Shown: in pieces, positions 10,837-57,700 of the stretch
Layout: each line of letters opens with the position of its first letter
Position numbering within the stretch: the stretch's first letter is position 1
Assembly (NCBI GenBank): GCA_012517765.1
Contig: JAAYUI010000026.1
Location: forward strand, 31,843 to 95,842
Direction of reading: 5' to 3'
Length of the DNA stretch: 64,000 nucleotides
Source: Caldisericales bacterium
Lineage (GTDB): Bacteria; Caldisericota; Caldisericia; JAAYUI01
Made by a program: the position numbers and the translations under genes
The notes under the pieces: model-generated
Told to the model about the DNA's origin: nothing
Database searches by the model: none
What the model saw: the letters and a program-made list of their open reading frames with translations, nothing else

Positions 10837-10851
10837 GGGCAAGTGTGGTTT

Positions 10852-12934: not shown

Positions 12935-12955
12935 CCTTCCAGATTTTTTTGTCAA
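12928..12955 (-). promoter_or_regulatory. candidate perR-rbr-dfx-ftn promoter
   Basis: Minus strand: TTGACA (12955-12950), 16-nt spacer, TATTAT (12933-12928). Confidence 0.45.
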
Positions 12956-13022
12956 CCTACAGGAATTAACAAAAAACATTTCACATTTTTAACACAGATT
13001 TACAGGAATCTTTGCTAATATC

Positions 13023-39502: not shown

Positions 39503-41082
39503 ATTTCAGGGACAAGATCGCTGGGAGGGAGCCGGTTGACTTGCTGGTAGTGAATGCCAGGATAATAAATCCGTCACTTGGGCAGGTTGTTGATGGCCAT
39601 GTTGCGGTTGCTGATGGAAAATTTGCTGGTTTTGGCCAGAAAAAGAGTGTCAAAGTTTTTGATGCTGGTGGTGCCTATATTGCCCCAGGCTTTATCGACC
39701 CTCACACTCACCCGGAAACCCTAGTTTCCCATCCTCTAAGGTCGTTTGCTTCGATGCTTCGAAGGGGTGTCACGACAGTGGTCTTTAATCCCTCAAACAC
39801 CGCCAATGCAACGGGGCTTGCCGGTGTGAGGTATCTTGACCAGACAACCCGAGATTTTGAGAAAAACATCCTGTTCTATGCCCCGTCAAGTGTCCCTCCG
39901 TACGAATTTGAAGATTATGGCGTTGACCTTTCATATCTTGATCTGGCGTGTTTTGCTGCAGAACCAAGATTTGTTGGGCTTTCAGAAATAATTGATCCAA
40001 ACGGCGACGGCATGGACATGAAAATAAAGCTGTTCCGAAACAAGGTTGTGGATGGTCATGCAAGGGGCCTTGGCGGGAAAGCGCTTGAGGAGTATTTTTC
40101 AGCAGGGGCATCCTGCGACCATGAATGCAAAACGCCAGAAGAAGCTGAAGAGAGGTTTGCGATTGGTGTGAGGATAATGGCAAGAGAGGGCAGTTTCGAC
40201 AGAGACCTACTGTCTGTGCTAAAGGCCTGCAATAGTGAGAACCAGCATTTTTTCAGTTCCTGCACTGACCATATCAAGCCACAGATGCTGCTTGAAGAAG
40301 GCTCAATCGACAATTGTGTCAGAAAAGCTTTCCAAAGCGGTGTCCCGCTGGTCAGGGCGGTCCAGATGGCTACCATAAACACTGCCTCGACCCTGAAGAT
40401 GACCGACAGGGGCAGTTTTGCCATCGGCAAGAGGGCCGATTTTGTGTTGATTGATCCCGGGACATTGAATGTGGTTTCAACATTCCTGTCTGGTGAACAG
40501 GTGACTAGCGAGCTTCTCGACTACCTGGAGGCTTGCGATCTGGGAGGACGCCCGCTAAATGCAGTTATTGATTTTGATATTGATGATATAAATTTCCGAA
40601 ACAGCGAGATTGTTGATGCAGGGGATGGTGCAACTGGGCGATATTCCAGCGAACCGGTTTTTGCGTGCGTAATCAATGTGCGCTCTGGTCAAAAGAATGT
40701 CTCATTTTGCAGACTCGCAGGACTTGGGAAGGTCAGTGGCGCTTTTGCCACAACGACACCGATCCACTCGCACAACATTTTTGTTTTGGGCAGTTCAGCA
40801 GGATTGATGAAAAAGGCCGTCAGCATGGTTGCTGGCGATGGTGGAGTGGCTGTTTGCGGGGAGGATTTTTACGAATTTCTACCGCTGCCAATCTTTGGCA
40901 TTTACTCCGACCTTTCTGTGGCCAGAGTTTCGGAGGGGATGAACAGAATACAGAGTGCCCTCGATAGAACAGGCGTCCATGAAGACATGTTCGGTCTTGT
41001 GAGGAGGCTCACACAGCCGGGTTTTGGAACCTGTCTTACTTCGAAGGGTGTATTTGTTTGTGAGGACCTAAAACAAAAATAA
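39499..41082 (+). CDS. amidohydrolase-superfamily protein, adenine-deaminase-like
   Basis: 527 aa. N-terminal VVNARIINP…PGFIDPHTHPE metal motif and a C-terminal region resembling the adenine deaminase C-domain. Substrate uncertain. Confidence 0.65.
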   Translation: MNFRDKIAGREPVDLLVVNARIINPSLGQVVDGHVAVADGKFAGFGQKKSVKVFDAGGAYIAPGFIDPHTHPETLVSHPLRSFASMLRRGVTTVVFNPSNTANATGLAGVRYLDQTTRDFEKNILFYAPSSVPPYEFEDYGVDLSYLDLACFAAEPRFVGLSEIIDPNGDGMDMKIKLFRNKVVDGHARGLGGKALEEYFSAGASCDHECKTPEEAEERFAIGVRIMAREGSFDRDLLSVLKACNSENQHFFSSCTDHIKPQMLLEEGSIDNCVRKAFQSGVPLVRAVQMATINTASTLKMTDRGSFAIGKRADFVLIDPGTLNVVSTFLSGEQVTSELLDYLEACDLGGRPLNAVIDFDIDDINFRNSEIVDAGDGATGRYSSEPVFACVINVRSGQKNVSFCRLAGLGKVSGAFATTTPIHSHNIFVLGSSAGLMKKAVSMVAGDGGVAVCGEDFYEFLPLPIFGIYSDLSVARVSEGMNRIQSALDRTGVHEDMFGLVRRLTQPGFGTCLTSKGVFVCEDLKQK

Positions 41083-44000
41083 TGAAAAAAATATCTATTG
41101 CTCTGATTTTTGTTCTTTTGATCTCGGTTTTTCTTCCAACATGGCCGAGATTTTCAACTGCCCAGCAACCCACCCAGGTTGTTGAAAGACTGTTGATGTT
41201 TGACCAGCCCGATGCAAAAAATCTGGCAGAGTTGAAAACAGAAACCTCGCTGGCGCAGTCTGGTGCAATATCCGAGCTGGAGGCCCTTTCCTCATCGGGC
41301 GAGGTGCTCTCTTACAAACCATTCTGGATACAGAACTGCATTCTTGTCACAGGCACCCAGAAGGCCTTTTCGCGCCTCGAGAGCCTTGGCTCTGTGAGGG
41401 CTGTTTTGCCCAACACAAAAATTTACCTGCCCCATGCCGGGCGATCGAAGGTGGAAACTGACATAGAGTGGAACCTCAAGGCAACGCATGTGCCAGAGGC
41501 ATGGGCCATGTCGGCAAAGGGTGATGGCGTGCTCGTCGGTGTTCTGGACAGTGGTTGTGATTCCACCCATCCGGAGCTTGCCGGAAAAGTCCAGAGTTTT
41601 GCTTCTTTTGACAGTTATGGCAGGAAGACTGGCCAAACTATTGCAAGCGACAGTGATGGCCATGGAACAAGCGTCTGCTCGGTCGTTTGTGGCGAAACGC
41701 TTGGCGTTGCCCCAAAGGCAAAATTGATTGTAGGTTCTGTCATCCCTGACGGCTCGGGAAACATTTCCCAGATTTTGGGCGGGTTGCAGTGGATAACCGA
41801 CCCTGACGACGACCCATCAACCAATGATTACCCAAGGGTTGTCAATATGTCGTTTGGCGCTTCCGGGACAATGGACTACCTGAAGACCGCAATAAAAAAC
41901 CTCAGAACATTTGGAATATTGCCCATTGCCTCGATAGGCAACGATGGCGAAGGTTCATCGAGCAATCCTGGCAATATGCCAGAAGTCCTCTCCGTTGGCT
42001 CTGTGGACTACGGGCTCAAGGCGTCTGGTTTCTCCGGCGGTGCCGAAGTGGTGTGGGAGAACGAAGACGACTCACTGACACTGGTTAAACCTGATTTATG
42101 TGCACCTGGGGAAAACATCAGGGTGGCCACCCCAAGAAGGACCTATGATGTTGCCGATGGCACCAGCTTTTCTTCCCCACATGTCGCCGGAATCTGCGCG
42201 CTTTTGCTTGAAAAGAGGCCCGGCATATCCCCTGAAGACCTGACCTATCTCCTCTCAAAGACTGCTGTCGACCTTGGTAGGCCAGGCAGGGACAGGCGCT
42301 ATGGCGAGGGCCTTGTCGATGCAAGGGACAGCCTTTCACTTGCCCTGTCAATGGAGCCAAAAACTGTTTCTGTGACGTGGCCCACCGGTTCTGCCCTCTG
42401 GGGAGACATAAATGTCACCTCTGGTGACCGTTCGTATGTGGTTTCAAGGGAACAGGCGAAATCGTTTACTTTTCTCTCCAGATCAGGCGAGGAGACAAAG
42501 ATAGGGGCTTTCGGTTTTGAATCCTCAACGATTGCAGGCAGTTCCATTGAGCTAAAACCTCTTCCGGAGCATTCGCTTGTTCTGACGGTGCACGAAGAGG
42601 GCACCCAGAACAATCTTGACAGCAAAGTCACCCTGAAAGATTCCCCGTTGCCGACATTTGAGGCACCTGACGGAACATTAAAGCTTGCTTTACCGGAGGG
42701 CGAGCACGAATTTGTTGCGACTTCTTTTGGCCACGCATCGAGGAGTTTCAGGATAAAACTCTCGTCTGATTTGTCTGCCTCCATGCCTCTCGAGAAGGCA
42801 AAATTAGCCTTTATTGACACAAGAAAACCAGTTTGGGGGATGAGCCCGGAACCGATCCGTGGAAAGCTCAAACCAGCTTTGGATTCAACAGGATTGCCCT
42901 ATTTTATATGGTCAACCTTGCAAGGTAATGTGACAGCCAAGCAACTTGGTGCTTTCCAGTATGTGGTATGGAACTCCGGTGGTTCACTTTCGGCCAAAGA
43001 CGTTGGCATTCTTGGCGGATACATGGACATGGGAGGTAAACTTGTCCTTACCTCCGATTTTTATGGCGCATCCTTCATCGGCCAGACCGATTCTACGGTT
43101 TTTCTGGACTCATATTTTGCCTGCAGACCAAGCGATGAGGGTGGAGCGGCATTAACCCACTGGGACGGAAAGACTTACAAGAGCCTTGCGCTTGGCAACC
43201 CAAGCGCCTATTTTTCCACTTCAAATCTTGTGCCGATGTCCGAAAAGGCAAAAATCCTGCTTTCTTATGCTGGTACAAGCCCCAAAAAGTATGCAGGGTT
43301 GAAAGTCTCAACCCTCAAAAACCAGGGAATAATCCTTGGGTTTACGTTCCCAAATGTGGCTTCGGAAGAGGACAGGGGCTGGCTTTTAAAGCTTTGCATC
43401 GATAGTTTTGAAGACACATTGCCATGGAAGGCCGATATAAAAACTGACGATGGTAAATTGCCTTCCGGAAACATAGCAATTGGCGGGGAAACCATAGATT
43501 TTACCGGGGGCAATATTTTTGTGCCTCACCTCCCGCTTGTGGCAACAAAAATCGAAATTTCCAGTTTTGGCTATAAAAAGGTCATCCTGGAGGATAGGCC
43601 GGAAAACCTCCCTTCGCAGATAATGCTTGAACCTGCCCCCCTGTCTGGAGTTTCTTTTGAGTCCAACTCTGATGGATACCTCATTTTCAATGACAAGAAT
43701 GTGGAGCCCATTAAGTTCTCAGCAAAGGGTGAAGTCAGATTGCCCGAAGGCAAATACAAAGTTGTGGCTGTATCGAGGGGAAGGGATCCTGTGGAAGTTG
43801 ATGTCGTTGCCCCAGGCAGGATTGCTCTTAATATGAGGCAGTCCCAGAAGGCAGCAGTGGTTTTTGAGGAAGCTGATGACATAAAGCTGACGCTGAGCGA
43901 AATCGGCATACCCTACAGGACCATCCAGCAGCCAACTGTCGCAGACATTGTGTCCTCGGGTCTTATTGTCTGGAACCATCCGGAGAAAATCTCAAGCTCC

Positions 44001-45416
44001 CAGATGGAGATGATAGGCAATGTGAAAACTGCCCTTCTTTGTGGTGCAGGTGCCATTATTGCCGGCCCGGAGCTTTGCAGGGCCTTTGGCAGACCAGTCC
44101 AGATAGATTCAGCCACTTCGCCTGTCTATGCGTCCATGGGTGAGAATGAACTCCAGGGAATACTCATATCCAACTCAAAAAGCATGAGAAACTACAGCAT
44201 GTCAATTCCTGTAATTTCGGGAGGAGATGTCCTGGCAAGGTTTATTGGCCAGGGTGCCTCAATCATAAAGCATGACAATCTCATAGCCTGCTCGTTTGGT
44301 TTGCAGGATGTTGATCTTGCAAATGTCAAGGCTGAGTTGATCAGAAGATTGGCCATGGTGCTTGGTTTTGGTGAAGGCAGGCTCCTTCCCGGCCAGATAG
44401 TTTCACCGTCAAAGGCTGTAAACACAAAATCTGTGGAAATAAGTGGTTTTGCACCACCTGCATCAAAAACTTCAATAACAATAGACGGTGTCGAAAAAAT
44501 CGTTGATCTTGATCCAGAGGGTTTTTTCTCTTTCTGGGCCAGCCTTGCGGAAGGAAAGCACGAATGTGTACTAATCTCACAATCAAATGGCCTTCTGGCG
44601 AGATCAGCGCCGCACACTGTAACGATAGACACCACACCACCCAGCATTGTCATGTATTCGCCAAAAGGCGGTAAAACACCGTCGCTCGAGATAGAAGTTT
44701 TGGCCAATGTCAGGAGTGCTTCAAAAGTCTTGATTGATGGCAAGCCGGTAAGAGTTGAGGGGACACTTCTTCGCACAACAGTTCCGGCTGGGTCAGGTTC
44801 CATCCTGATCTCTTGTGAAGATGAGGCGGGCAACAGGTCTGAGGTCAGGGCAAACTATACACCGTCACCCGGGCTTTTTGCTGACGCGCAAAAATCCGGG
44901 TCATTTTTCGAGATTGGCCAGCTTGCCTGCGCGAACATCCTGAAGAATGAGAATGGCCAGTTTTACCCCTCAGAATCTCTTTCTAGAGGAAAGATGGTCA
45001 TCTGGGTTGCACTACTGCTTGGGCTTGACCCAAAGCCGGGAAAATCCACATACGAAGACGTGCCAAAGAATTCTCCGGAAGAGCCGTTTATTGGCGCCCT
45101 TGTCCAGCACGGGACATTGTCCGGAAAAGGAAAATTCTACCCCACATCTGCCTGCACGAGAGAGCTCCTTGTGCAAGTCCTCTCCAATGGCTTGAGGCTT
45201 GGCAAAAAGGCCGAAAAAATGCCATTTTCTGATATAAAACAGGACAATGTCTATTCACAAGCCATCCTTAGGTGCGTTTTTGCCGGCATAATTGACCCCG
45301 CAGAAAAAAGACTGTTCTCAGGTGGCAAATTCGGTCTAGGGCAAAAGCTCTCAAGAGAGCAAGCCTGCATAATGCTTTACAATGCCCTTGTCTACAGGGC
45401 AAGAGGAGAACAATGA
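41082..45416 (+). CDS. secreted S8 subtilisin-like protease with large beta-rich middle region and three C-terminal SLH domains
   Basis: Signal peptide MKKISIALIFVLLISVFL. Triad motifs VLDSGCD, HGTSV, GTSFSSPHVAG. The C-terminal ~180 aa form three SLH-like repeats (FADAQKSG…, YEDVPKNSPE…, FSDIKQDNVY…). Confidence 0.85.
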   Translation: MKKISIALIFVLLISVFLPTWPRFSTAQQPTQVVERLLMFDQPDAKNLAELKTETSLAQSGAISELEALSSSGEVLSYKPFWIQNCILVTGTQKAFSRLESLGSVRAVLPNTKIYLPHAGRSKVETDIEWNLKATHVPEAWAMSAKGDGVLVGVLDSGCDSTHPELAGKVQSFASFDSYGRKTGQTIASDSDGHGTSVCSVVCGETLGVAPKAKLIVGSVIPDGSGNISQILGGLQWITDPDDDPSTNDYPRVVNMSFGASGTMDYLKTAIKNLRTFGILPIASIGNDGEGSSSNPGNMPEVLSVGSVDYGLKASGFSGGAEVVWENEDDSLTLVKPDLCAPGENIRVATPRRTYDVADGTSFSSPHVAGICALLLEKRPGISPEDLTYLLSKTAVDLGRPGRDRRYGEGLVDARDSLSLALSMEPKTVSVTWPTGSALWGDINVTSGDRSYVVSREQAKSFTFLSRSGEETKIGAFGFESSTIAGSSIELKPLPEHSLVLTVHEEGTQNNLDSKVTLKDSPLPTFEAPDGTLKLALPEGEHEFVATSFGHASRSFRIKLSSDLSASMPLEKAKLAFIDTRKPVWGMSPEPIRGKLKPALDSTGLPYFIWSTLQGNVTAKQLGAFQYVVWNSGGSLSAKDVGILGGYMDMGGKLVLTSDFYGASFIGQTDSTVFLDSYFACRPSDEGGAALTHWDGKTYKSLALGNPSAYFSTSNLVPMSEKAKILLSYAGTSPKKYAGLKVSTLKNQGIILGFTFPNVASEEDRGWLLKLCIDSFEDTLPWKADIKTDDGKLPSGNIAIGGETIDFTGGNIFVPHLPLVATKIEISSFGYKKVILEDRPENLPSQIMLEPAPLSGVSFESNSDGYLIFNDKNVEPIKFSAKGEVRLPEGKYKVVAVSRGRDPVEVDVVAPGRIALNMRQSQKAAVVFEEADDIKLTLSEIGIPYRTIQQPTVADIVSSGLIVWNHPEKISSSQMEMIGNVKTALLCGAGAIIAGPELCRAFGRPVQIDSATSPVYASMGENELQGILISNSKSMRNYSMSIPVISGGDVLARFIGQGASIIKHDNLIACSFGLQDVDLANVKAELIRRLAMVLGFGEGRLLPGQIVSPSKAVNTKSVEISGFAPPASKTSITIDGVEKIVDLDPEGFFSFWASLAEGKHECVLISQSNGLLARSAPHTVTIDTTPPSIVMYSPKGGKTPSLEIEVLANVRSASKVLIDGKPVRVEGTLLRTTVPAGSGSILISCEDEAGNRSEVRANYTPSPGLFADAQKSGSFFEIGQLACANILKNENGQFYPSESLSRGKMVIWVALLLGLDPKPGKSTYEDVPKNSPEEPFIGALVQHGTLSGKGKFYPTSACTRELLVQVLSNGLRLGKKAEKMPFSDIKQDNVYSQAILRCVFAGIIDPAEKRLFSGGKFGLGQKLSREQACIMLYNALVYRARGEQ

Positions 45417-45826
45417 TACTGGAACAGCTAAAACAGGCTGGCTATAGAATAACAAAACCCAGGAAAGCGGTCATAGCGCTTCTTGAAGAAAATGATGACA
45501 TGGATGCAAAGCAGATATACAGGACCCTAAGGGAGCGCGGGCAGGACGTCGATGTTGCTACCGTTTACAGGGTGCTTGACCTTCTTTTCAGGCTTGGTAT
45601 TGTGCACAGGAGCAATTTTACCCAGCAGCACGCCCATTTTGGTTTTGTGAAGGCCGTCCACATGATATGCAGGCGTTGCGGTAAAATCGATGAGAAAGAA
45701 GTGGACAGCAAAATTCTGCTTGATAAAATGAAAGACGTCCTGGGGGATTTCTCCGCCCAGGACGTCTCTGTAGAGGTCTATGGTTATTGTAAGACCTGCA
45801 GCCGATCAGCAGATGGCAACGTTTGA
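45413..45826 (+). CDS. Fur-family metalloregulator
   Basis: ATGA overlap with the protease stop and a GAGGAG SD. Winged helix ([13 protein letters not shown]…[11 protein letters not shown]), structural Zn site CRRCG…CKTC. Confidence 0.8.
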
Positions 45827-46080: not shown

Positions 46081-46105
46081 AAAAAGGCCTCATAAATCCG
46101 AGGCC
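46081..46105 (-). terminator. rho-independent terminator after paralog A
   Basis: Stem ggcctc (46086-46091) / gaggcc (46100-46105), 8-nt loop. U-run on the minus strand (plus-strand aaaaa 46081-46085). Confidence 0.7.
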
Positions 46106-46144
46106 CAAATCACTTGGACTTCAAATTCACACTTTGATTATACA

Positions 46145-46894
46145 CTATAAAACAAAATTTGCAATCTTTCCCCTGTTTATCCAAATGAGTTTTGCACCAA
46201 GTGCGTCACCAACAGCTTTTACTGGTACAAAGGTCTTTCCGCTGACTATCTCTGGCGGAGCATCAAGCGGATAATCTTTGCCGTTGATTTTTGCGTTTTT
46301 TTTGCCGACCCACATCTGTCCGACAAGTTTGCTGCCTTTCTTGATGTCGATTCTCTTTTCCGAGGCGACCCAGCCAACTGTTCCACCGAGGCTTTCAATG
46401 CCTATGCGGAGCGGTGCCATTGATTTGCCGTTTTTGATATAGCATGCACCACCATGGGGTGTGAGATCAACTTTCTTTCCGTCAACAGCGCAAACAGTAA
46501 TTGGCTTTTTGGTTGTTGTGTCAAGCGAGAGGAAGAACGTAACGCATTTTTTGTATTTTGCCGACCCGGGATGGTCCATGAAATCACCAGGATACGTTTT
46601 GGCATTCAATTCCTCAATGTTTGTATATCCATCGCCGTCCGCGTCAAATTTCTCAAACGCATCAAAGTCGCCAAGTTCTTCTGTATTTTCATACATTACG
46701 CCATACGGGTTTCTTGGCCCGGTGCCTTCCTGTATGAAGTGGCAGCAAAGACATGTCTTGTCGATCTTTGATCCCTTCAGCTTCGGATAGGTAAGAATGA
46801 GTTCATCGTGGTAATCCTGTTGTGCGTAAACATAAGCGAATGCACCCAGAATGAGTCCGGTAAGTACCAGAACTGCCACAATTGACCTTTTCAT
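46145..46894 (-). CDS. secreted CXXCH + EF-hand-loop + copper-amine-oxidase-N-like (stalk) domain protein, paralog A
   Basis: Signal peptide MKRSIVAVLVLTGLILGAFAYVYA. KTCLCCHF (CXXCH). DADGDGYTNIEE (canonical 12-residue EF-hand loop). C-terminal stalk-like domain (GKSMAPLRIGIESLGGTVGW…GKTFVPVKAVGDALGAKLIW). Confidence 0.7.
   Translation of the reverse strand: MKRSIVAVLVLTGLILGAFAYVYAQQDYHDELILTYPKLKGSKIDKTCLCCHFIQEGTGPRNPYGVMYENTEELGDFDAFEKFDADGDGYTNIEELNAKTYPGDFMDHPGSAKYKKCVTFFLSLDTTTKKPITVCAVDGKKVDLTPHGGACYIKNGKSMAPLRIGIESLGGTVGWVASEKRIDIKKGSKLVGQMWVGKKNAKINGKDYPLDAPPEIVSGKTFVPVKAVGDALGAKLIWINRGKIANFVL
46704..46819. repeat. 116-nt tract about 92% identical to 47525-47640 (47-nt perfect core 46767-46813)
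   Basis: Direct base-by-base comparison gives 9 mismatches in 116. It encodes the QQDYHDELILTYPKLKGSKIDKTCLCCHFIQEGTGPRNPYG module of paralog A. Confidence 0.9.
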
Positions 46895-46956
46895 TTACAC
46901 ATACCTCCTTGGTTTTCTATCCTCAATACAATATTTTTTGTTTCAGGTTCAGCCTT

Positions 46957-47718
46957 TTATTTAAGGTTGTAGTTCCAGATTTTACCCATTGTTATCTTTG
47001 CTTCGGTGGCACCAAGGGCCTTGACTGCGAGGTCAAATGTCGAAACAAACATGTTCTTTCCCTTAAGTTCCGGAGCAATCTTGCAATTGTAGTCTTTTCC
47101 ATTGAGCTTGCCCTTTGCTTTTCCGACCCAGAATTGCGCAACAACCTTGCCACCTTTTTTGACGTCGAGTCTGCCCTTGCCATCTTTTGCATTGAAGATT
47201 GCAGTTGCACCAAGTCCATCAACAACCGGCTTCCATGGGGCCATTACCGTTCCCGATTTTTCATATGCGGCCCCGCCAAGTGGCGCTATGTCAACTTTCT
47301 TCCCACCAGCAACACAGACAGTAATGTCTTTTTTTGTCTTCGTGTCCTTTGAAGTGAAGAAAGTCACGCATTTTTTGAATTTCCTTGGTGATGGCGAGTC
47401 AGAAAAATCACCAGGATATGTTTTTGCATTGATTTCCTGGACGTTTGTATATCCGTCACCATCTGCGTCAATTTTTTCAAATGCTGCGAAATCGGCAGAT
47501 CCCTCGTTTTCATAGAGGACGCCGTACGGGTTTCTCGGCCCGGTGCCTTCCTGTATAAAATGGCAGCAAAGGCAGGTTTTGTCAATTTTTGATCCCTTCA
47601 GCTTCGGATAGGTAAGAATGAGTTCATCGTGGTAGTCCTGCTGGGCAAAGACGAACGCAAGTGTTCCAAGCATTATCAATGCAGTGGTGGCTACAGCAAT
47701 CAATGTGTTTTTTTTCAT
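46957..47718 (-). CDS. secreted CXXCH + EF-hand-loop + stalk-domain protein, paralog B
   Basis: Start reset to MKKNTLIAV (ATG 47718, AGGAGG 6 nt upstream). Same module order as A: KTCLCCHF, DADGDGYTNVQE. The C-terminal half is diverged. Confidence 0.7.
   Translation of the reverse strand: MKKNTLIAVATTALIMLGTLAFVFAQQDYHDELILTYPKLKGSKIDKTCLCCHFIQEGTGPRNPYGVLYENEGSADFAAFEKIDADGDGYTNVQEINAKTYPGDFSDSPSPRKFKKCVTFFTSKDTKTKKDITVCVAGGKKVDIAPLGGAAYEKSGTVMAPWKPVVDGLGATAIFNAKDGKGRLDVKKGGKVVAQFWVGKAKGKLNGKDYNCKIAPELKGKNMFVSTFDLAVKALGATEAKITMGKIWNYNLK
47525..47640. repeat. 116-nt tract about 92% identical to 46704-46819
   Basis: See the partner repeat. Perfect core 47588-47634. Confidence 0.9.
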
Positions 47719-47892
47719 GGACATCCTCCTGGTGCAGGTGTGTTTTCCTTTATGAAAGTTTAAGGGCACACAGGTCAAAACAAGGTCACCAAGACTAAAC
47801 CCAGGTTTAAGCTTTGATTACAGCTTTGTTCTGCCAGCACACATCTTTACAAAGTTCAAAATTTAACATTGAATTAAGTTTGGTTTCGGGAA

Positions 47893-48663
47893 TCAATCGC
47901 CTTCGCAGCAGGATTTTTTTGCTTTATATCCGATATTGAGAATTTTGGACGGTGCTACCCAGTTCAGTTCTGCATCCATCGAATCGGAAAGGGCCCTTAC
48001 AGGAACAAAGGTACTGCCACCAACTATTTCGGAAGGGTTCCCAAGCTTGTAGTCTTTGTTTTTTATTCTTGCGGTGTTTCTTCCAATCCAGAACTGCGCA
48101 ACCACTGTTTCGCCCTTTTTTATGTCTATTCTTCTTTCAGAACCAAAGAATGATGCTGTGCCGCCAAGGTTTTCCACTGCAAACCTCAATGGAGCCATGG
48201 AAGTACCGTTTTTGATATAGCAGCTGTTACCACTGGGCAATTCGACATATTTCCCGTCCACAAAAGAGTATGCTGGTATCTTGCCTGTTTTTGGTGCCTG
48301 GAAAAAAATCAGGCTGACACATTTTGAATATTTTTTTGGGTCTGGCTGATCAGTGAACAACCCAGGATATGTGCCTGCTTTTATCTCATCAATATTTGTG
48401 TATCCATCTCCATCGGAGTCGATTCCTTCTATCTCGGAAAACCCTTTCATGTTGTTGGCGGCAAATGATATTCCAAAAAGGTTTCTTGCTGTTCCACCCT
48501 CAGGTGTGATGTGGCACAATGAGCAATCTCTGTATAATTTTGTGTTTTTGGCATCAGGGTATCTTGCAAAAAATGCCTCCCTGTAAGTTCCTCTTCCAGT
48601 TACCACTCCGGCAGCAGCAACTATGAAAAATATTGACAATACAAATACCATTGTTCTTTTCAT
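47893..48663 (-). CDS. secreted CXXCH + EF-hand-loop + stalk-domain protein, paralog C
   Basis: Start reset to MKRTMVFVL (ATG 48663, GGAGAG upstream). RDCSLCHI (CXXCH), DSDGDGYTNIDE, stalk-like C-terminal domain, extra C-terminal KKSCCEGD. Confidence 0.7.
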   Translation of the reverse strand: MKRTMVFVLSIFFIVAAAGVVTGRGTYREAFFARYPDAKNTKLYRDCSLCHITPEGGTARNLFGISFAANNMKGFSEIEGIDSDGDGYTNIDEIKAGTYPGLFTDQPDPKKYSKCVSLIFFQAPKTGKIPAYSFVDGKYVELPSGNSCYIKNGTSMAPLRFAVENLGGTASFFGSERRIDIKKGETVVAQFWIGRNTARIKNKDYKLGNPSEIVGGSTFVPVRALSDSMDAELNWVAPSKILNIGYKAKKSCCEGD

Positions 48664-48726: not shown

Positions 48727-50211
48727 TCAGGGTTTTTTGCCTGGCTTGCCCTGGCCCCAGAGATAGTGTGATATTCTGTCAGAATCAACGCTTGTTATCC
48801 ATGAGGGATCTTTTGATGCCATTCTTTTTACAATCTCTGGCCAGATGTCCCGTTCTTTTGTGTCTGGTGATGGTGCCTGGTGACACCTGTTGCATTTTGC
48901 CTCGAAAAGATCCTTGCCGATGTCCGGTTTTGGTGGTGTCTGTCCGGGGATCAATTTCGGGGAAATGAAAAAGATGGTGTCCTGTGTTGATGAGCTTGAA
49001 ATATCAAGCGCCATGTCAAAAAAGGTCGAGGGAACGATGATCCTTGATTTAAGAATTGTCGGTTTTGGGTCGAGCAATATCCTTTTGTCTGGCAGTTCAA
49101 CAGTTGCATTATCAATGTTAAGTTTTATTGATGAACCCGGTTTTCTGATTGTAACTGTCCTGGTTTTTGGTGCCCATAAGACCTCAAATCCCAGCGATTC
49201 ACAGACAGCCCTCAATTCAACCATGAATATTCCTGATGTGTTTTTTGCCGGTGTTGAAAGCTTTATGTTTTCGCCAGACCTGTTGTACAGGACGTAGCTG
49301 CCGGTTTTGGTGTAAGAAAGCTTTTGCGCTGGCAGCGACATCAGGTCTTTTATTGAAAACAGATAAACACCATTTTTGTCAAATTTGTGGATGTTTACCT
49401 TTCCGTCTGTCACTTCACCCACATAACAACCGGAATCAAGATAGTCGCAGATTACAGATGACGGATTTTTGACGATGCCGTCACCGCAGTCGAAAAGATG
49501 TGCAAAATTTTCAGAAAAAACGTGTACTTTCTTGGTGCCCGAATCTGCAACCCATATTCTCCTGTCGTTGTCCTCGGTTGTGGAGACATCAACCGGACTG
49601 GAGAGGACACCTTGCCCAAATGATCCTGTTAGATTGCCATATTCGGTGGTTTTAATGATCCTAGAATTGTCGGGATCACAGATAAAAACCTGTTTTATAA
49701 AATCCATATATGCACCGGCAGGATTGCCCAAAGTGGAGAGGATTTCTTTTGGAAAAACCTTGCTTGATTGCCCTGGGGGGGAGATGTGAAAGATTTTTCC
49801 TGGTGCAGTTGCTATGACGTGCTCGTAGTCTGAGTCCTGGCAAAGGGCAATCGCATTTACGCTCTGCTTGTCATAGAACAATTCCGGCCCTTTTAAGTCG
49901 TAGTTCCAAAGCTTGTTCCGGTCGTAATCGTATAGCCTGACAGTTTTTTCTGCCTCGTCAAGCATTGCGATTGCGCCACCACATGAGCAGACTGAAACAT
50001 CTGTTATTGATCCGGCGCCGATGTTTTTTGAAGAGATGAAATCGCCGAGGTATATGCCTGTTTCTGTGTCCAGGTGCATTACCTTGCCTACAGAAGCAAC
50101 TGCAACATACAGATCTTTGTATTTGCTGGTCCCGAGCCCAAGCTGGTTTGTAGGTTCAAAAGCAATCGAGTCCGGGCTGGCAAAGAGCACCAAAAAAGAA
50201 AGGGCCAGCAT
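48727..50211 (-). CDS. secreted NHL-like beta-propeller protein with stalk domain and C-terminal CXXCH segment
   Basis: Probable start MLALSFLVLFASP (ATG 50211); the longer ORF-track start 50298 would overlap the upstream gene by 62 nt. NHL-like blades (VFICDPDNSRII, RRIWVADSGTKKVHVF), stalk domain (VELRAVCESLGFEVLWAPKTRTVTI), C-terminal DLFEAKCNRCHQ. Confidence 0.6.
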   Translation of the reverse strand: MLALSFLVLFASPDSIAFEPTNQLGLGTSKYKDLYVAVASVGKVMHLDTETGIYLGDFISSKNIGAGSITDVSVCSCGGAIAMLDEAEKTVRLYDYDRNKLWNYDLKGPELFYDKQSVNAIALCQDSDYEHVIATAPGKIFHISPPGQSSKVFPKEILSTLGNPAGAYMDFIKQVFICDPDNSRIIKTTEYGNLTGSFGQGVLSSPVDVSTTEDNDRRIWVADSGTKKVHVFSENFAHLFDCGDGIVKNPSSVICDYLDSGCYVGEVTDGKVNIHKFDKNGVYLFSIKDLMSLPAQKLSYTKTGSYVLYNRSGENIKLSTPAKNTSGIFMVELRAVCESLGFEVLWAPKTRTVTIRKPGSSIKLNIDNATVELPDKRILLDPKPTILKSRIIVPSTFFDMALDISSSSTQDTIFFISPKLIPGQTPPKPDIGKDLFEAKCNRCHQAPSPDTKERDIWPEIVKRMASKDPSWITSVDSDRISHYLWGQGKPGKKP

Positions 50212-50236
50212 TGCTGGCCCTGTGGTCTTGAAATTC

Positions 50237-50674
50237 CTAGAACTCAATCCTGAGTCCTTCCAGATAGCAACCCTTGCCCCTGCGCTTTGGCGTCCCATAA
50301 ACAGTTACGGTTTTTCCGGTCCTGTCAGGCAGGACAACATTGGCTGGTTTCAAATCAACAAAAATCTCGTCAGTACCATCAGTCAGCCTGAACCATGTCC
50401 CCATCTTGCATTCAAGTACTATCTTGCCTGATACTTTGACAAGGTCCCCGGGTATCTGGTCACATTTGCTGACAATCTCACCTATCGGCATTTCGATGGC
50501 TGAATGGGTTTCTGTACTCCCGTATGTCTCCTGGACACCTTCGAGCGTGAGCCAGCCAAGGGAATACATTGAAATGAATACTCCCACGACAAGCACAAGC
50601 CCAATAATGATGATGCCGAACTGACGCACGAGGCCGGAGAAGCCCTTTCCGGTTTCTTTACGGACGGGTTCCAT
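50237..50674 (-). CDS. membrane-anchored DUF4920-like protein
   Basis: TM FGIIIIGLVLVVGVFISMY. The C-terminal domain VKVSGKIVLECKMGTWFRLTDGTDEIFVDLKPANVVLPDRTGKTVTVYG is similar in layout to the lipoprotein at 31040-31423. Confidence 0.55.
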   Translation of the reverse strand: MEPVRKETGKGFSGLVRQFGIIIIGLVLVVGVFISMYSLGWLTLEGVQETYGSTETHSAIEMPIGEIVSKCDQIPGDLVKVSGKIVLECKMGTWFRLTDGTDEIFVDLKPANVVLPDRTGKTVTVYGTPKRRGKGCYLEGLRIEF

Positions 50675-50716
50675 TTTTTACCCTCCTTTGCTCTGTACGC
50701 CTGTCAGCCTGGCCAA

Positions 50717-51103
50717 TCATTTGAAGAACTGGCCGTCCTTGTACTTGAAGCTGTCAATGACCTTGCCGTCCTTTATGATGGCAATGCCAGTGCAGCAACC
50801 CGCATTGAAAGTTTTTGCTGTAACATTGCTGTCGCCATAAGTCCTTGCGTAATAATCTACAGCTTCTTTTTCCAGCGATTTCAAATCTGTTGTTGCATTG
50901 GTGGTGGGAGCAATCTGCTCGCCACACCCGGAACCGTAGCTTTCGCCACCACAGCCGCCTGCGCCAGATTCTGCGCATGAACTTCCGCAATTGTTTGCCG
51001 AGGCCAGCGAGCCTCCGTTGTTTGTATAAGCGACTATTCCAATCACTACCAGGGCCAAGACTGCTGCTCCGGCTATTATTCCGGCCCAAAACCTTCTGTC
51101 CAT
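50717..51103 (-). CDS. membrane-anchored Cys/Gly-rich hypothetical protein
   Basis: TM FWAGIIAGAAVLALVVIGIVAY, a low-complexity CGSSCAESGAGGCGGESYGSGCGE segment, and a ~60-aa C-terminal domain with a CC pair. Confidence 0.5.
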   Translation of the reverse strand: MDRRFWAGIIAGAAVLALVVIGIVAYTNNGGSLASANNCGSSCAESGAGGCGGESYGSGCGEQIAPTTNATTDLKSLEKEAVDYYARTYGDSNVTAKTFNAGCCTGIAIIKDGKVIDSFKYKDGQFFK

Positions 51104-54710: not shown

Positions 54711-57700
54711 TCAGGGAGTCGCGCCCTCATCGCCGAGGGTAGCTCCCCAGTTCATGCACAGTATGATGAGGTCCATTCCATCAACGATTCCATCTTCGTT
54801 GAAATCAGCCCTTGCGTCAAAATTCGGGTCTCCTCTTGAGAGTCCGAATGTTTTGCCAAGGAGTGTAAGGTCCTGGGTATCGACCTTGCCGTCACCGTTA
54901 ACATCTCCCGGTAGGAAGCCAGACACAGTCAGCTTGAGCGTTGGCTCGGTTCCGGTTATTGTCCTTACTGAAATGAACCCGTTGTTGCAGTCAAAGACTT
55001 TTATGTTGGCAATCCTGAGCCTGGTTTCCTGGGTTATATTGGTGCCCCTGAGTTGTACCCTACAGAAAACACCAGTGCCCGATATTGGCCCTGTACCCTG
55101 TTCCCTTGTCGAGGCAACATGGGCTATGCCTATGTTTGAGTCGATTGTCCTTACGAATGCCGATCTCTTCAGGTCGGTTGTCATGAGCGGGCCTTCGGTG
55201 ACGTCGATGATCTCGATTGCAAGGGGATCATAGATGATGTCAAATTCTACCGCGCAGGCATTGGTTAGGTTGCCAATCTCTATATCGACCGTATCAGAGG
55301 CCTTTTTCTTCAGACCCTTGTATTCAGGCGTAAACTTGACCATTTGTGGCGAGTCTGCCTTGTAGACCCTCAGCAGGACGTCCCTTGAAGACACTCTCTG
55401 GCCACCACCTATACCCACAGTCTGGAACAGGCATTCCTTAAGTCCTTTTTGGAGAGCGTCTGCGTCACCATCAAGGAAGGTCGGCGGGACCTTGATGAGG
55501 CATACAACTCTCTGAGTGAGCCTGCTTGGAGCGAGTCTCTTCGGCAGAAACTCGTATTCGATGCCCTTGCATGCTTCTCGTTGGTTGAGCGAGAATGCAA
55601 CGGAAGCATTGAAGTTTGATGTCATGTTGACTTCAAACACTGCCATGGCCATCTGTCCAGCGGATATCTGGAGTATGCCCTCCTTGGGGCTTATCGAGAA
55701 CCCGCCCTGCTCCTTCTTTACGGTCAGGATGAAGCTGACCTGCATCTTCGGGGCCTTTCGTCCGGAGTTTGTGACAATTGTCACCCTCTTGCCGTCTATC
55801 GGTTGTCCAAGGAATTCTGACTGGATGACCAGTGATACGACACCTGATGAGACGACCTCGTTCGGCTTGAATGTGAATGTTATTCCCGGGAAGTCGTTTT
55901 TGCCAAGCACTTCAAATGTGACGGGCAGATTGTATCCTTCGAGGAAATCAACTGCTATGCCAACTTCTTTTGTTTCACCGAGCCACATCACTATGTCCCT
56001 GTCGTCCGGGTTTGCCAGTTTTGACCTGTAGTCTCCAGGAACAGGCGGCTCAACAACAAGTGTGACAGGGAAGGTGTGTGATTTGCATCCACCCTCTGCC
56101 CTGAATGTTAGGTTGTATAGGCCAGGGGCCGTATTTTTGGCTATGTCCAGTTTGTATTTCGATTTCCCTGGAACAGGTGTAATGATTGGGGCAAATGAGC
56201 CAGTAACGCCCTTTGGAAGACCGTCTATGGACAGCGATACAGCACCCACAAATCCTCCTGCCGCGTCAATCGTGAGACCAATTTCAGCTGGTTCTCCTGC
56301 ATAAAGCGTTACTTTTGTTGTATTTGCTGTGAATGTGAAGTCCCCGGGTGCGGGCTTCCTGACTACAAGGCTGATGGTGGCGTTTCTCTCAAACCCTGCG
56401 CCGTAAGCCTGGATGACCATGATGTGTGTTCCTTCCGGACAACCTTCGCCGACGCTTATCGAAAGTGTTGTAGTTCCGGAAGCTGACAGGGTGTCAGGGC
56501 TGAATGTTGTTGTTGTGTCTGGTGGGGCCTGAATTATCTTGAACCTGACAGCAGTCTTGAGCGGGATTTCTGACCTGAAGAAGATGTTGAGCGGCATTGA
56601 TGTTCCCTGGCAAATGACCGGACTGCCGGTTTCCGGGGCAAGGCCAAATCCCCACTTCTGGGCCCAGGCCATGACATGGCCGTCTTCGGTTGCATAATAC
56701 AGCATTCTTCTGGAGAATGTCAGGTGGGATTTGCTTGGCCTGTTTGTCTTGATTGTGAAGATAGTTTTTCCATTTGGATCAAAGCAGTATATCTGGCCGT
56801 CCTTGTTGTATGTCATGGACTGCGCGTCCTTGTCGATTATCACCGAGCCGTAGGCGTACTGCCTCTTTTCACAGCTCCATTCGCCAATGACGTTGTCAAG
56901 GATCTTTTGCCTGTTTTCGGATTCCACCCTGACAAACCTGTTTGTCTGTGTCCTTATCTCCGGTGTGATGCCCCAGTTTGTGTTGACGTGGATGACATCT
57001 TTGTCTGGATTGATCCTGAGTGCCGGCGAGCCAAACGTTGGCCCGAATGTTGCCAGCTGCCAGCGCATTGATCCATCGGAGATGTTGTTCCTGTATATCA
57101 TCGAGCTGCCATAGCAGTAGTTGTCGTCTGTGGCACCCTGTGCGCCTGCAAAATAAAACTCGCCCTTGTCTACATCGACCGGGCAGGCATTGATTGGCCT
57201 TGATTTGAAAAACTCGGTTTCCCAGTATTTCTTCCCGTCCTGAGCGTCGAGCTGGTAAACTTTGCCGTCCATGCATGGGACAAGGATGGTGCTTTTGTTT
57301 ACTTGCGGAACCCTGTTGAATGCGTAGGAGAACGGGGCGTAGCAGGACGCCGGGAGTTGCTGCTTCCATATTATGGTGTCGATGTCGGTGTGTGCGGCCA
57401 TGCAGTAAACTGTGCCGTTGACTGTTGCAAAATATACCCTCTTTGTTGGCACTTCTGGCTGTTTGAGCAGGAGCACGGATGTCCTGATTGGTTTTGTCGT
57501 GTTGTAGCTCCACACCCTCTGGCCAGTTTTTGCGTTGATACAATAGAAGTTTCCATCGAGAGAGCCAATATATATGTAGCCATTTTCAGTGTCGAGTGCC
57601 GGGGTGCACATAACTGGCCACTGTTTGTCTTCATTGTCGTCAAAATTGTCAACTTCCGAGACAGACTTTCCGAACTCAAAAGACCACATTTTTGTTCCCA

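What the first reader, a model, noticed from the sequence alone, without database searches (positions are those of the whole stretch)
46145..48663. Three tandem paralogs with an unusual architecture: signal peptide - CXXCH - canonical EF-hand loop - copper-amine-oxidase-N-like wall domain
Three co-directional genes (46145-46894, 46957-47718, 47893-48663) encode ~250-aa secreted proteins sharing the same module order:
- One heme-attachment-type motif: KTCLCCHF in A and B, RDCSLCHI in C.
- One 12-residue loop about 35 aa later that fits the EF-hand consensus (D-x-D-x-D-G-x-x-x-x-x-E): DADGDGYTNIEE, DADGDGYTNVQE, DSDGDGYTNIDE.
- A conserved TYPG(D/L)F…KKCV segment.
- A C-terminal domain typical of copper amine oxidase N-terminal-like 'stalk' domains.

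I do not know a described family combining a monoheme-like motif, a single Ca-loop (half-dockerin-like) and this wall-associated domain. A triplicated array suggests dosage or diversification of a surface redox or metal-binding function. The calcium loop could also be a docking element for the cohesin proteins 7-14 kb away.
Basis: partly seen in the sequence, partly recalled or inferred. Interest (0 to 1): 0.7.

Follow-up and report, generated by a model that had tools for sequence, protein, structure and literature searches.

The report
Calcium-loop monoheme cytochrome-like surface proteins
Three neighbouring genes of an uncultured Caldisericota bacterium encode secreted proteins whose head domain belongs to a widespread but untested family (Pfam Temptin_C) that pairs a heme-attachment motif with a calcium loop, so the domain is catalogued, though no structure, no named relative and no paper on prokaryotic members turned up.

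Summary
Three co-directional genes on the minus strand (46145-46894, 46957-47718, 47893-48663) encode ~250-aa exported proteins. Each has one CXXCH, a canonical 12-residue EF-hand loop 35-36 residues later, and a C-terminal Cu_amine_oxidN1 domain.

It is Pfam PF24784 (Temptin_C) and is homologous to the first heme module of NCBIfam NF041762.

- An exhaustive profile search found it in 1717 protein clusters.
- C-x-x-C-H is kept in 97-100% of 137 aligned domains, along with an invariant Tyr and the Ca-loop ligands.
- The module occurs in tandem arrays of 4-7 copies and at the N-terminus of multiheme cytochromes.
- Eukaryotic temptins keep the His and the Ca loop but lack both Cys.
- AlphaFold gives a confident fold (pLDDT 90) with no PDB match.

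The fusion to Cu_amine_oxidN1 was seen only in Caldisericota. There, 1-3 copies always follow a beta-propeller/Cu_amine_oxidN1/cytochrome-c gene.

Best reading: envelope-tethered, Ca-stabilised monoheme c-type cytochromes that form an extracytoplasmic redox module. Heme attachment is inferred, because no maturation genes could be examined. The dockerin idea is not supported. Interest is moderate.

The parts
46145..46894 (-). Paralog A (249 aa). Signal peptide at 46823-46894, Temptin_C-type head module at 46520-46822, Cu_amine_oxidN1 at 46175-46486.
   Evidence: A Shine-Dalgarno sequence AAGGAGG lies upstream. The ortholog is 94-96% identical in Caldisericota MAGs.
46739..46753 (-). CLCCH motif of A: a CXXCH with an extra Cys at the third position.
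   Evidence: Family-wide conservation of the motif is shown.
46610..46645 (-). EF-hand-type Ca loop of A (DADGDGYTNIEE).
   Evidence: The profile gives only weak hits to EF-hand helix-loop-helix motifs in PDB chains.
46957..47718 (-). Paralog B (253 aa). CLCCH at 47560-47574, Ca loop at 47434-47469, divergent Cu_amine_oxidN1 at 47035-47277.
   Evidence: The ortholog is 90% identical in L001 and L002 and 72% identical in L024.
47893..48663 (-). Paralog C (256 aa). CSLCH at 48511-48525, Ca loop at 48385-48420, Cu_amine_oxidN1 at 47947-48261, C-terminal KKSCCEGD tail.
   Evidence: This is the only copy that passes the Pfam Temptin_C gathering score (28.1 against 27). It is absent from L001 and L002. 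A divergent copy sits at the same position in L024.
48727..50298 (-). Conserved upstream partner gene: NHL-like beta-propeller, then Cu_amine_oxidN1 (49000-49275), then a C-terminal class-I-like cytochrome c segment (CNRCH at 48880-48894, with a conserved downstream Met). The real start is probably Met30 at 50211.
   Evidence: The gene is conserved immediately upstream of the paralog(s) in L001, L002, L003 and L024, with CGQCH or CNKCH and the 'V(K/E)RM' segment retained.
50237..51103 (-). Two small membrane-anchored proteins of unknown family: p145 at 50237-50674 and the Cys-rich p128 at 50717-51103. They lie at the head of the same-strand gene string and are syntenic in relatives.
46085..46106 (-). 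Terminator-like hairpin plus T-run just downstream of paralog A. It is the likely 3' end of the transcription unit.

Best explanation
The three genes encode Sec-exported monoheme c-type cytochrome-like proteins that are tethered at the cell envelope.

**Head domain.** After signal-peptide cleavage, a ~100-residue head domain of the prokaryotic CXXCH-bearing branch of the temptin superfamily (Pfam PF24784) is proposed to receive one heme. The heme would be linked covalently at C-x-x-C, with the invariant His as proximal ligand. A single EF-hand-type loop binds Ca2+ as a structural ion that stabilises the helix-loop-helix packing of this small domain.

**Tail.** A short Cys-containing linker joins the head to a Cu_amine_oxidN1 domain. 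This organism places that domain at the C-terminus of several exported proteins. It most likely holds the head at the envelope or on a partner protein.

**Partner.** The genes sit in a conserved Caldisericales string behind a beta-propeller/Cu_amine_oxidN1/cytochrome-c protein. The most likely job is short-range extracytoplasmic electron transfer to or from that propeller protein. The 1-3 paralogs would offer different heme environments; for example, only A has the His83 that precedes the invariant Pro84.

**Shown:** sequence features, family membership, conservation, synteny and a confident fold model.
**Inferred:** heme attachment, Ca binding, tethering and the electron-transfer role.
For: **Family membership and size.**
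- Pfam Temptin_C and NCBIfam diheme_GEGP hit the head module.
- An exhaustive profile search gave 1717 representatives at E<=1e-3 and 289 at E<=1e-10.

**Conservation of the motifs.**
- 148 of 153 full domains carry CXXCH, 135 carry the Ca loop, and the modal spacing is 33-36 residues.
- Y12, C27, H28, D61, D63, E70 and P77 are invariant across 137 domains. An invariant His directly after the Cys pair is what heme ligation needs and what a plain disulfide does not.

**Association with cytochromes.**
- The module is fused to recognised cytochrome c domains: Cytochrome_CBB3 in 12, Cytochrom_C in 10, Cytochrome_C7 in 7, MtrC/MtrF in 6 and Paired_CXXCH in 5 of 99 members.
- It forms arrays of 4-7 modules, each with its own CXXCH.
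- Named source organisms are, to my knowledge, cytochrome-c-rich lineages: Methanosarcinales, Ca. Methanoperedens, Desulfobacterales and Chloroflexota.

**Eukaryotic relatives.** Eukaryotic temptins lack both Cys but keep the His and the loop. To my knowledge the eukaryotic secretory pathway has no heme lyase, which would explain the loss of both Cys.

**Local evidence in Caldisericales.**
- CXXCH is retained in every Caldisericales ortholog despite 40-77% identity.
- The adjacent gene carries an independent class-I-like CXXCH segment with a conserved Met in orthologs only about 45% identical. This argues that these organisms do make c-type cytochromes.
- A ResA/StoA/DsbE-like extracytoplasmic thioredoxin lipoprotein lies in the window.

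**Fold.** The AF2 model of the head has pLDDT 89.9.

**Tether.** Cu_amine_oxidN1 recurs on at least six exported proteins of this locus and its flank.
Against: - No heme-attachment machinery (ccm, or ccsBA/resBC) lies in the 64-kb window or about 10 kb beyond its right end. The rest of the genome could not be searched.
- No conserved distal Met or second His exists in the family, so the heme would be unusual: five-coordinate, or ligated by Tyr or another residue.
- A stable Caldisericota subfamily has C-x-C-H instead of C-x-x-C-H. I know of no precedent for this as a heme-attachment motif.
- The family's only studied member, Aplysia temptin, is a secreted pheromone described as having two disulfide bonds (PMC2762978). 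As far as I know it has not been reported to bind heme.
- Neither Foldseek nor sequence profiles link the fold to any solved cytochrome.
- The electron-transfer partner and the tethering role rest on synteny and domain recurrence only.
Confidence: 0.55

Rival explanations
1. The proteins are non-heme, Ca-binding adhesion or signalling proteins. As in animal temptin, the head would be a small Ca-stabilised binding domain. The Cys pair plus His would form a disulfide, or a non-heme metal site such as Zn, Cu or Fe, rather than thioether links to heme.
For: - Pfam places the module in the temptin 'Cys/Cys disulfide' family.
- Temptin acts as a secreted pheromone and has disulfides (PMC2762978).
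- A CXCH variant subfamily exists in Caldisericota.
- No conserved distal heme ligand exists.
- No maturation genes were seen locally.
Against: - The disulfide cysteines of eukaryotic temptins sit at other positions. Eukaryotes have no Cys at either CXXCH position.
- The His after the second Cys is invariant in 137/137 prokaryotic domains and in the eight eukaryotic temptins aligned.
- The module is repeatedly fused to bona fide cytochrome c domains.
- NCBI curators treat the related NF041762 as a diheme protein.
Confidence: 0.25
2. The head is a redox or metal sensor rather than a carrier. The tethered monoheme domains would sense extracellular redox state, O2/H2O2 or iron, or scavenge heme or iron, and signal or protect rather than transfer respiratory electrons.
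For: - Fur-family regulator and cold-shock genes are immediate neighbours.
- An oxidative-stress cluster lies in the same window.
- The lack of a conserved sixth ligand would leave a site open for small ligands.
- Holmes et al. suggested a sensor role for a monoheme cytochrome of Methanosarcina (PMC6703419). Membership of that protein in this family was not confirmed.
Against: - The Fur gene is on the opposite strand and overlaps the stop of the S8 peptidase gene, so it belongs to another unit.
- No transmembrane or signalling output domain is present in the paralogs.
- Neighbourhoods of two homologues elsewhere showed no shared neighbour and no regulatory genes next to the module gene.
Confidence: 0.12
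3. The Ca loop is a half-dockerin that plugs into the cohesin of the 1709-aa protein at 54711-59840.
For: - The loop has the D-x-D-x-D-G pattern shared with dockerin repeats.
- A protein with both cohesin and dockerin domains lies 6-11 kb away.
Against: - No Dockerin_1 hit appears in any paralog, even at E<=1.
- There is a single loop rather than the duplicated 22-residue segments.
- The loop is embedded in a conserved globular domain together with CXXCH.
- The loop is equally conserved in archaeal PGF-CTERM proteins and in the eukaryotic temptins aligned.
- The cohesin protein carries its own dockerin.
Confidence: 0.03

Closest known systems
Pfam PF24784 Temptin_C ('Temptin Cys/Cys disulfide domain'; namesake Aplysia californica temptin, P0302)
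   Same: The homology covers the whole head module. The His of CXXCH, the R-N-x-[FY]-G motif and the D-S-D-G-D-G-x-T-N-x-x-E loop are shared. Protein C passes the Pfam gathering score, and 56 of 99 relatives match.
   Different: Eukaryotic temptins have G-V-G-H in place of C-x-x-C-H and carry their own cysteines elsewhere. They are free secreted proteins or N-terminal domains of DBH-like monooxygenases (PMC2762978). None of those retrieved is fused to Cu_amine_oxidN1.
NCBIfam NF041762 'GEGP motif-containing diheme protein'
   Same: The head modules align to profile positions 44-127 with E values from 8e-11 to 2e-12. This region matches the single-CXXCH head, and the family's name implies that curators read its CXXCH motifs as heme sites.
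   Different: Scores of 42-47 bits are far below the 300-bit cut-off. The window proteins have one CXXCH, not two, and the rest of the 359-position model is unmatched. They are not members.
Small PGF-CTERM-anchored single-module proteins of Methanosarcinales (e.g. P0153, P0177, P0194)
   Same: They share the same head module (39-54% identity to A) behind a signal peptide, followed by a linker and a surface-anchoring element.
   Different: The anchor is an archaeal PGF-CTERM sorting signal instead of a Cu_amine_oxidN1 domain. All are annotated only as hypothetical or by the sorting signal.
Class I c-type cytochromes
   Same: They share an exported small helical domain with one CXXCH. A class-I-like segment sits in the adjacent gene.
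   Different: The paralogs give no Cytochrom_C or Cytochrome_CBB3 hit. The family has no conserved Met or second His. It has an EF-hand loop, and Foldseek finds no structural match in the PDB.
Type I dockerin and canonical EF-hand proteins
   Same: They share the 12-residue D-x-D-x-D-G-x-x-N-x-x-E loop flanked by short helices. Profile hits to calbindin and calmodulin loops are weak.
   Different: The loop is single and unpaired. EF-hand Pfam scores are below cut-off and there is no dockerin hit. The loop is part of a larger conserved domain.

Membership tests
Pfam PF24784 Temptin_C | Whole-protein score at or above the curated gathering score (27 bits) | tested here: inconclusive
   C scores 28.1 bits and passes. 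B scores 20.1 and A 16.8, both below the cut-off. A and B are 38-39% identical to C over the module. The profile built from all three retrieves a family in which 56 of 99 members hit Temptin_C.
Pfam PF24784 Temptin_C | Shared core residues with bona fide temptins: His, RNxFG and the DSDGDGxTNxxE loop | tested here: met
   In the alignment with Aplysia, Trichoplax, diatom, oomycete, green-alga and sponge temptins, H28, N38, G41, D60, D62, G63, D64, N68 and E71 are invariant.
Pfam PF24784 Temptin_C | The Cys/Cys disulfide pattern of eukaryotic temptins | tested here: not met
   The eukaryotic Cys positions (before GVGH, before DSDGDG, and in GDPxCxW) have no Cys in A, B or C. Conversely, the CXXCH cysteines are absent from eukaryotes.
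c-type cytochrome (covalent heme protein) | CXXCH motif, conserved in orthologs | tested here: met
   The motif is present in A, B and C and in all Caldisericales orthologs. C27 and H28 are in 137/137 and C24 in 133/137 family domains.
c-type cytochrome (covalent heme protein) | Export to the extracytoplasmic side | tested here: met
   N-terminal K/R-rich segments are followed by hydrophobic stretches ending in AxA-like sites: VYA|QQ, VFA|QQ and VTG|RG. This is by inspection; no dedicated predictor was available.
c-type cytochrome (covalent heme protein) | Cytochrome c maturation system (Ccm or CcsBA/ResBC) in the same genome | not testable with these tools
   None lies in the window or about 10 kb beyond its right end. 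Only a ResA/StoA/DsbE-like thioredoxin lipoprotein is present, at 33245-33787. The other contigs of the related MAGs could not be read.
c-type cytochrome (covalent heme protein) | Conserved distal axial ligand (Met or His) | tested here: not met
   No conserved Met exists. The His at position 83 occurs in 35% of domains and, in the window, only in A. The only other invariant side chain that could act as a ligand is Tyr12.
c-type cytochrome (covalent heme protein) | Covalently bound heme demonstrated | not testable with these tools
   This needs a heme stain, pyridine hemochrome assay or mass spectrometry.
NCBIfam NF041762 GEGP motif-containing diheme protein | Score at or above 300 bits, and two CXXCH motifs | tested here: not met
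   Scores are 41.7-46.9 bits and cover only profile positions 44-127 of 359. There is one CXXCH per protein.
Type I dockerin (PF00404) | Pfam match, and duplicated Ca-binding segments | tested here: not met
   No Dockerin_1 hit appears at E<=1. There is one loop per protein.
EF-hand | 12-residue loop consensus (positions 1, 3, 5, 6, 9 and 12) flanked by helices | tested here: met
   D59, D61, D63, G64, N67 and E70 are conserved at 90-100%. The AF2 model has helices at 53-57 and 68-73 around the loop. Pfam EF-hand scores are below their cut-offs (17.7 against 25.9), and the hand is unpaired.
Pfam PF07833 Cu_amine_oxidN1 | Score at or above the gathering score (24.2 bits) | tested here: met
   A scores 79.2, B 28.0 and C 67.4 bits. 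The AF2 full-length model is confident only in this domain.

The most novel reading that the evidence does not exclude
The prokaryotic temptin-like module would be an unrecognised class of Ca2+-stabilised monoheme c-type cytochrome domain. It would have an unusual axial environment: no conserved Met or His, an invariant Tyr, and a C-x-C-H variant in Caldisericota. It has no structural relative in the PDB.

On this reading it is the ancestor of the eukaryotic temptin domain, which lost the thioether cysteines but kept the His. In Caldisericota, whose sulfur-reducing electron path is unknown, it would be displayed on Cu_amine_oxidN1 stalks as part of a cell-surface electron-transfer system, together with a propeller-cytochrome enzyme.
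Probability: 0.3. Interest if true: 0.65.

Novelty: new variant of a known kind. Interest (0 to 1): 0.42.

Why it matters
If the head domain really binds heme, it defines a large cytochrome domain family (more than 1700 clusters at 50% identity) for which I found no biochemical study. The family has an integral EF-hand Ca site and a fold with no match among solved structures. It occurs in methanogens and methanotroph-related archaea, sulfate reducers, Chloroflexota and Caldisericota, often at the tip of multiheme or surface proteins.

It would also recast the animal pheromone temptin, and the temptin domain of lophotrochozoan DBH-like monooxygenases, as a derivative of a cytochrome fold.

For Caldisericota, whose terminal sulfur-reducing system is unknown (PMC12285271), the conserved propeller-cytochrome plus 1-3 tethered monoheme proteins is a concrete candidate extracytoplasmic redox module.

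If heme is not bound, the locus is simply a set of lineage-specific Ca-binding surface proteins and is of minor interest.

Tried and rejected
- **Word-indexed homology search** with the head of A found a single near-identical fragment. The exhaustive profile search was needed.
- **AF2 of full-length A** with only the three paralogs gave a poor model (pLDDT 49). The head alone with a 44-sequence alignment worked.
- **Structure and sequence searches against the PDB.** Foldseek gave nothing usable. phmmer and the profile gave only sub-threshold EF-hand loop hits.
- **Gene neighbourhoods** of two single-module homologues were uninformative.
- **Maturation genes.** A Pfam scan of essentially every sizeable ORF of the window found none. 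Walking off the left end failed because the protein was not on record. About 10 kb off the right end held none. I found no way to target the other contigs of the Caldisericota MAGs with the available scans, so the genome-wide test was abandoned.
- **M. acetivorans MA0167.** This monoheme cytochrome is up-regulated 6-fold during AQDS respiration (PMC6703419), and I tested whether it belongs to the family. A scan seeded with a Methanosarcina member returned no M. acetivorans locus, and cluster names did not include it. It remains an unconfirmed lead.
- **Literature searches** for 'temptin/heme/bacterial', 'GEGP/diheme' and Caldisericota cytochromes gave nothing specific.
- **Dockerin reading** rejected.


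Full report

Yes. The ORF list shows three minus-strand genes: A at 46145-46894 (249 aa), B at 46957-47718 (253 aa from its ATG) and C at 47893-48663 (256 aa).
- Their alignment gives 61% identity for A/B and 45% for A/C, with 76 invariant columns.
- Pfam confirms a C-terminal Cu_amine_oxidN1 domain above its curated cut-off in all three.
- Each protein starts with a basic-then-hydrophobic segment ending in an AxA-like site, so all three are probably Sec-exported (by inspection).
- A has a strong Shine-Dalgarno sequence. A terminator-like hairpin follows A at 46106-46085.
- In the whole window, the only CXXCH motifs inside credible genes are these three and one in the adjacent gene (cross-checked).

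**2. What is the head module?**

It is not an orphan.
- Pfam places protein C in PF24784 Temptin_C (28.1 bits against a gathering score of 27). A and B hit the same model below threshold.
- NCBIfam NF041762 ('GEGP motif-containing diheme protein') matches all three over profile positions 44-127, with E values from 8e-11 to 2e-12. These scores are far below its 300-bit cut-off.
- A profile of the three heads, searched exhaustively against 1.84 billion representatives, found 1717 proteins at E<=1e-3 and 289 at E<=1e-10.
- In the best 150, a local hmmsearch finds 153 near-full-length domains in 139 proteins. Of these, 148 carry CXXCH and 135 carry D-x-[DN]-x-[DN]-G, at a modal spacing of 33-36 residues.

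Column statistics over 137 domains:

| Conservation | Residues |
|---|---|
| Invariant | Tyr12, Cys27, His28, Asp61, Asp63, Glu70, Pro77 |
| 96-99% | Cys24, Asn38, Asp59, Asn67, Pro84 |
| 85-95% | Gly41, Phe52, Ile55, Ser60, Gly64, Ile71, Thr75, Gly78 |

The loop fits the EF-hand consensus at positions 1, 3, 5, 6, 9 and 12. No Met or second His is conserved: the His at position 83 occurs in 35% of domains and, in the window, only in A.

**3. Architectures and hosts**
- The module usually sits directly behind a signal peptide.
- It occurs alone with an archaeal PGF-CTERM anchor in Methanolobus, Methanosarcina, Methanococcoides and Methanomethylovorans.
- It occurs as arrays of 4, 5 and 7 modules, each with its own CXXCH (P0004, P0003 and P0002).
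- It sits in front of many other domains. Among 99 members: Cytochrome_CBB3 (12), Cytochrom_C (10), Cytochrome_C7 (7), MtrC/MtrF (6), Paired_CXXCH (5), Ig-like, PKD and CarboxypepD_reg modules, PASTA, and Cu_amine_oxidN1 (6).
- Other named hosts include Ca. Methanoperedens, Desulfobacterales, Thermodesulfobacteriota, Chloroflexota/Anaerolineae and Hydrogenedentes.
- All source annotations are 'hypothetical' or name only the sorting signal.

**4. Relation to temptin**

I retrieved genuine temptins, namely the Aplysia californica temptin precursor P0302 and relatives from Trichoplax, flatworm, diatom, oomycete, green alga and sponge. I then aligned them with A, B, C and two archaeal members.
- Invariant across all 13 sequences are the His of CXXCH, Asn38 and Gly41 of the R-N-x-F-G motif, and the D-S-D-G-D-G-x-T-N-x-x-E loop.
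- Eukaryotes have G-V-G-H where prokaryotes have C-x-x-C-H. Their own cysteines lie at other positions.
- The window proteins therefore belong to a CXXCH-bearing prokaryotic branch of the temptin superfamily.
- To my knowledge the eukaryotic secretory pathway has no heme lyase. Loss of both Cys with retention of the His in eukaryotes would then fit a covalent-heme role for the Cys in prokaryotes.
- In lophotrochozoan DBH-like monooxygenases, a temptin domain occupies the N-terminal position that is usually held by a DOMON domain (PMC2762978). This is at least compatible with a cofactor or redox role, but it is only an inference.

**5. Structure**
- With the three paralogs alone, AF2 modelled only the Cu_amine_oxidN1 part confidently.
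- With a 44-sequence alignment, the 101-residue head of A gave pLDDT 89.9 and pTM 0.79. It is a small helical domain with helices at 2-11, 19-22, 39-50, 53-57 and 68-73.
- Foldseek found no PDB match.
- A sequence profile found only sub-threshold EF-hand loops in PDB chains, and phmmer found nothing.
- I could not access the coordinates, so the Cys geometry and the position of Tyr12 relative to His28 remain unchecked.

**6. Genomic setting**

The window is chromosomal DNA of an uncultured Caldisericales bacterium. A is 96% and 94% identical to genes of two Caldisericota MAGs and 50% identical to a third.

The local minus-strand gene order is p128, p145, a 523-aa protein, C, B, A and a cold-shock gene.
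- It is flanked by dnaN/recF/dciA on one side and by a convergent S8-peptidase-SLH plus Fur unit on the other.
- The 523-aa protein is an NHL-like beta-propeller followed by Cu_amine_oxidN1 and a C-terminal class-I-like cytochrome c segment (CNRCH...VKRM).
- That segment gives weak Cytochrome_CBB3, SorB and PDB cytochrome hits. Its real start is probably Met30.

The propeller gene precedes the paralog(s) in every relative examined:

| Locus | Relation | Copies after the propeller gene |
|---|---|---|
| L001, L002 | A 94-96% identical | A and B only |
| L003 | A 50% identical | one copy |
| L024 | A 77%, B 72% identical | three copies, same order |

- In L024 the first copy is only 41% identical to C, but it shares C's odd C-terminal KKSCC tail.
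- CXXCH and the downstream Met of the propeller protein are conserved at 45-47% identity. This is independent evidence that these organisms make c-type cytochromes.
- The segment AQQDYHDELILTYPKLKG(S/T)KIDKTCLCCHFIQEGTGPRNPYGV is identical in A and B, both here and in L024, although the proteins are only 72-77% identical overall. It is therefore the most constrained part.
- Cu_amine_oxidN1 also ends the 500-aa Ig-like protein at 59852-61354 and an S8 peptidase just beyond the window. It looks like a general C-terminal module of exported proteins in this lineage.

**7.

Pfam scans of essentially all sizeable ORFs found no Ccm or Ccs/Res genes, and none lay in about 10 kb beyond the right end.

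One extracytoplasmic thioredoxin-like lipoprotein (lipobox LASC, active site CSSC) sits at 33245-33787. It resembles ResA, StoA and DsbE at E about 1e-13 but below their cut-offs. This is suggestive, not specific.

I could not reach the remaining contigs of the related MAGs, so this test remains open.

**8. Interpretation**

The most economical reading is that A, B and C are exported monoheme c-type cytochrome-like proteins. The small head is stabilised by one EF-hand Ca2+ and held at the envelope, or on a partner, by a Cu_amine_oxidN1 domain. They would work with the propeller-cytochrome protein as an extracytoplasmic redox module.
- Heme binding is inferred from four things: the invariant C-x-x-C-H, the fusion partners, the host range, and the Cys loss in eukaryotes.
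- Against it stand five things: no conserved sixth ligand, a stable C-x-C-H variant in 690-aa Caldisericota proteins with Ig repeats and two Cu_amine_oxidN1 domains, no local maturation genes, no structural link to known cytochromes, and a namesake protein not known to bind heme.
- I put heme binding at about 0.6-0.65 and the full mechanism at 0.55.
- The main rival, a non-heme Ca-binding surface protein with a disulfide or metal site, gets 0.25. A sensor or scavenger role gets 0.12. The dockerin idea gets 0.03.

**9. Novelty and score**

The head domain is catalogued (Pfam and NCBIfam) but I found no experimental work on the prokaryotic members. The fusion to Cu_amine_oxidN1 and the conserved pairing with a propeller-cytochrome gene were seen only in Caldisericota, and I found no description of them.

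I classify it as a new variant of a known kind, of moderate interest (0.42). The value lies less in the triplication, which varies from 1 to 3 copies, than in the family itself. It is a very widespread CXXCH plus EF-hand domain with an invariant Tyr and no solved structure, and it is related to animal temptin. Caldisericum is reported to depend on sulfur compounds while its sulfur reductase is unknown (PMC12285271), so a surface redox module in this phylum is worth testing.

Noticed in passing
window 48727-50298 (-); probable start at 50211: A 523-aa protein combines an NHL-like beta-propeller, Cu_amine_oxidN1 and a C-terminal class-I-like cytochrome c segment (CNRCH...VKRM). It lies immediately upstream of the paralogs and is conserved in that position in four related loci. 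A terminator-like hairpin at 50221-50201 overlaps the annotated 5' end, which supports the later start.
   Followed up: partly
L021 611-2686; L022 549-2615; L023 6001-8067; P0035, P0048: 690-aa Caldisericota proteins carry the same head module but with C-x-C-H (DFCLCH, DVCICH, DFCVCH) instead of C-x-x-C-H. Ig-like repeats and two Cu_amine_oxidN1 domains follow. I know of no precedent for CXCH as a heme-attachment motif.
   Followed up: partly
alignment A5; P0302 and other temptins: Eukaryotic temptins (mollusc, placozoan, flatworm, diatom, oomycete, green alga and sponge) align with the prokaryotic module. They keep the His of CXXCH and the Ca loop but have G-V-G-H in place of the two Cys. This suggests temptin is a cytochrome-like fold that lost covalent heme attachment.
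   Followed up: partly
P0002 (643 aa), P0003 (466 aa), P0004 (388 aa): Metagenomic proteins are built almost entirely of 7, 5 or 4 tandem head modules, each with its own CXXCH and Ca loop. That is about 80 residues per putative heme, much sparser than typical multiheme cytochromes.
   Followed up: no
window 47893-47925 (C-terminus of C); L024 6001-6774: Paralog C ends in KAKKSCCEGD, and the first-position paralog of L024 ends in KAPKKSCCGG. The shared C-terminal Cys-Cys tail has no known function and is absent from the A and B types.
   Followed up: no
window 46697-46825 and 47518-47646 (residues 24-66 of A, 25-67 of B): The 43-residue segment AQQDYHDELILTYPKLKGSKIDKTCLCCHFIQEGTGPRNPYGV is identical in A and B. 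It is nearly identical in their orthologs in L024, although those are only 72-77% identical overall. DNA identity between A and B is 83% over nt 70-314 and undetectable elsewhere. This points to strong constraint or gene conversion.
   Followed up: partly
window 33245-33787 (-): A lipoprotein-type thioredoxin-fold protein (lipobox LASC, CSSC active site) is most similar to StoA, ResA and DsbE thiol-disulfide oxidoreductases (E about 1e-13, below their cut-offs). It lies next to MacB/FtsX-type ABC transporter genes and could be a cytochrome-maturation reductase.
   Followed up: partly
window 50717-51103 (-) and 50237-50674 (-): Two small membrane-anchored proteins head the gene string and are syntenic in relatives. 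p128 has a Cys-rich Gly/Ser segment with a weak hit to the Cys-Xaa-Xaa-Xaa repeat radical-SAM target family (TIGR04117, E=0.01). p145 has no family.
   Followed up: partly
window 7914-12979: A cluster typical of oxygen defence in anaerobes: flavin reductase-rubredoxin fusion, a flavodiiron-type protein (ODP beta-lactamase fold plus flavodoxin), a CMD-GAF protein, ferritin, rubrerythrin and a PerR-like Fur-family regulator.
   Followed up: no
window 54711-59840 (-) and 59852-61354 (-): A 1709-aa protein has multiple PQQ/BamB-like beta-propellers and carries both a cohesin and a type I dockerin. Next to it is a 500-aa Glucodextran_B/Ig-like protein ending in two Cu_amine_oxidN1 domains. Cohesin-dockerin elements in a Caldisericota genome are unusual.
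   Followed up: no
window 41082-45826 (+): A 1444-aa S8 subtilase with C-terminal SLH repeats has a stop codon that overlaps the start of a Fur-family regulator gene (45413-45826). The pair is syntenic in all related loci.
   Followed up: no
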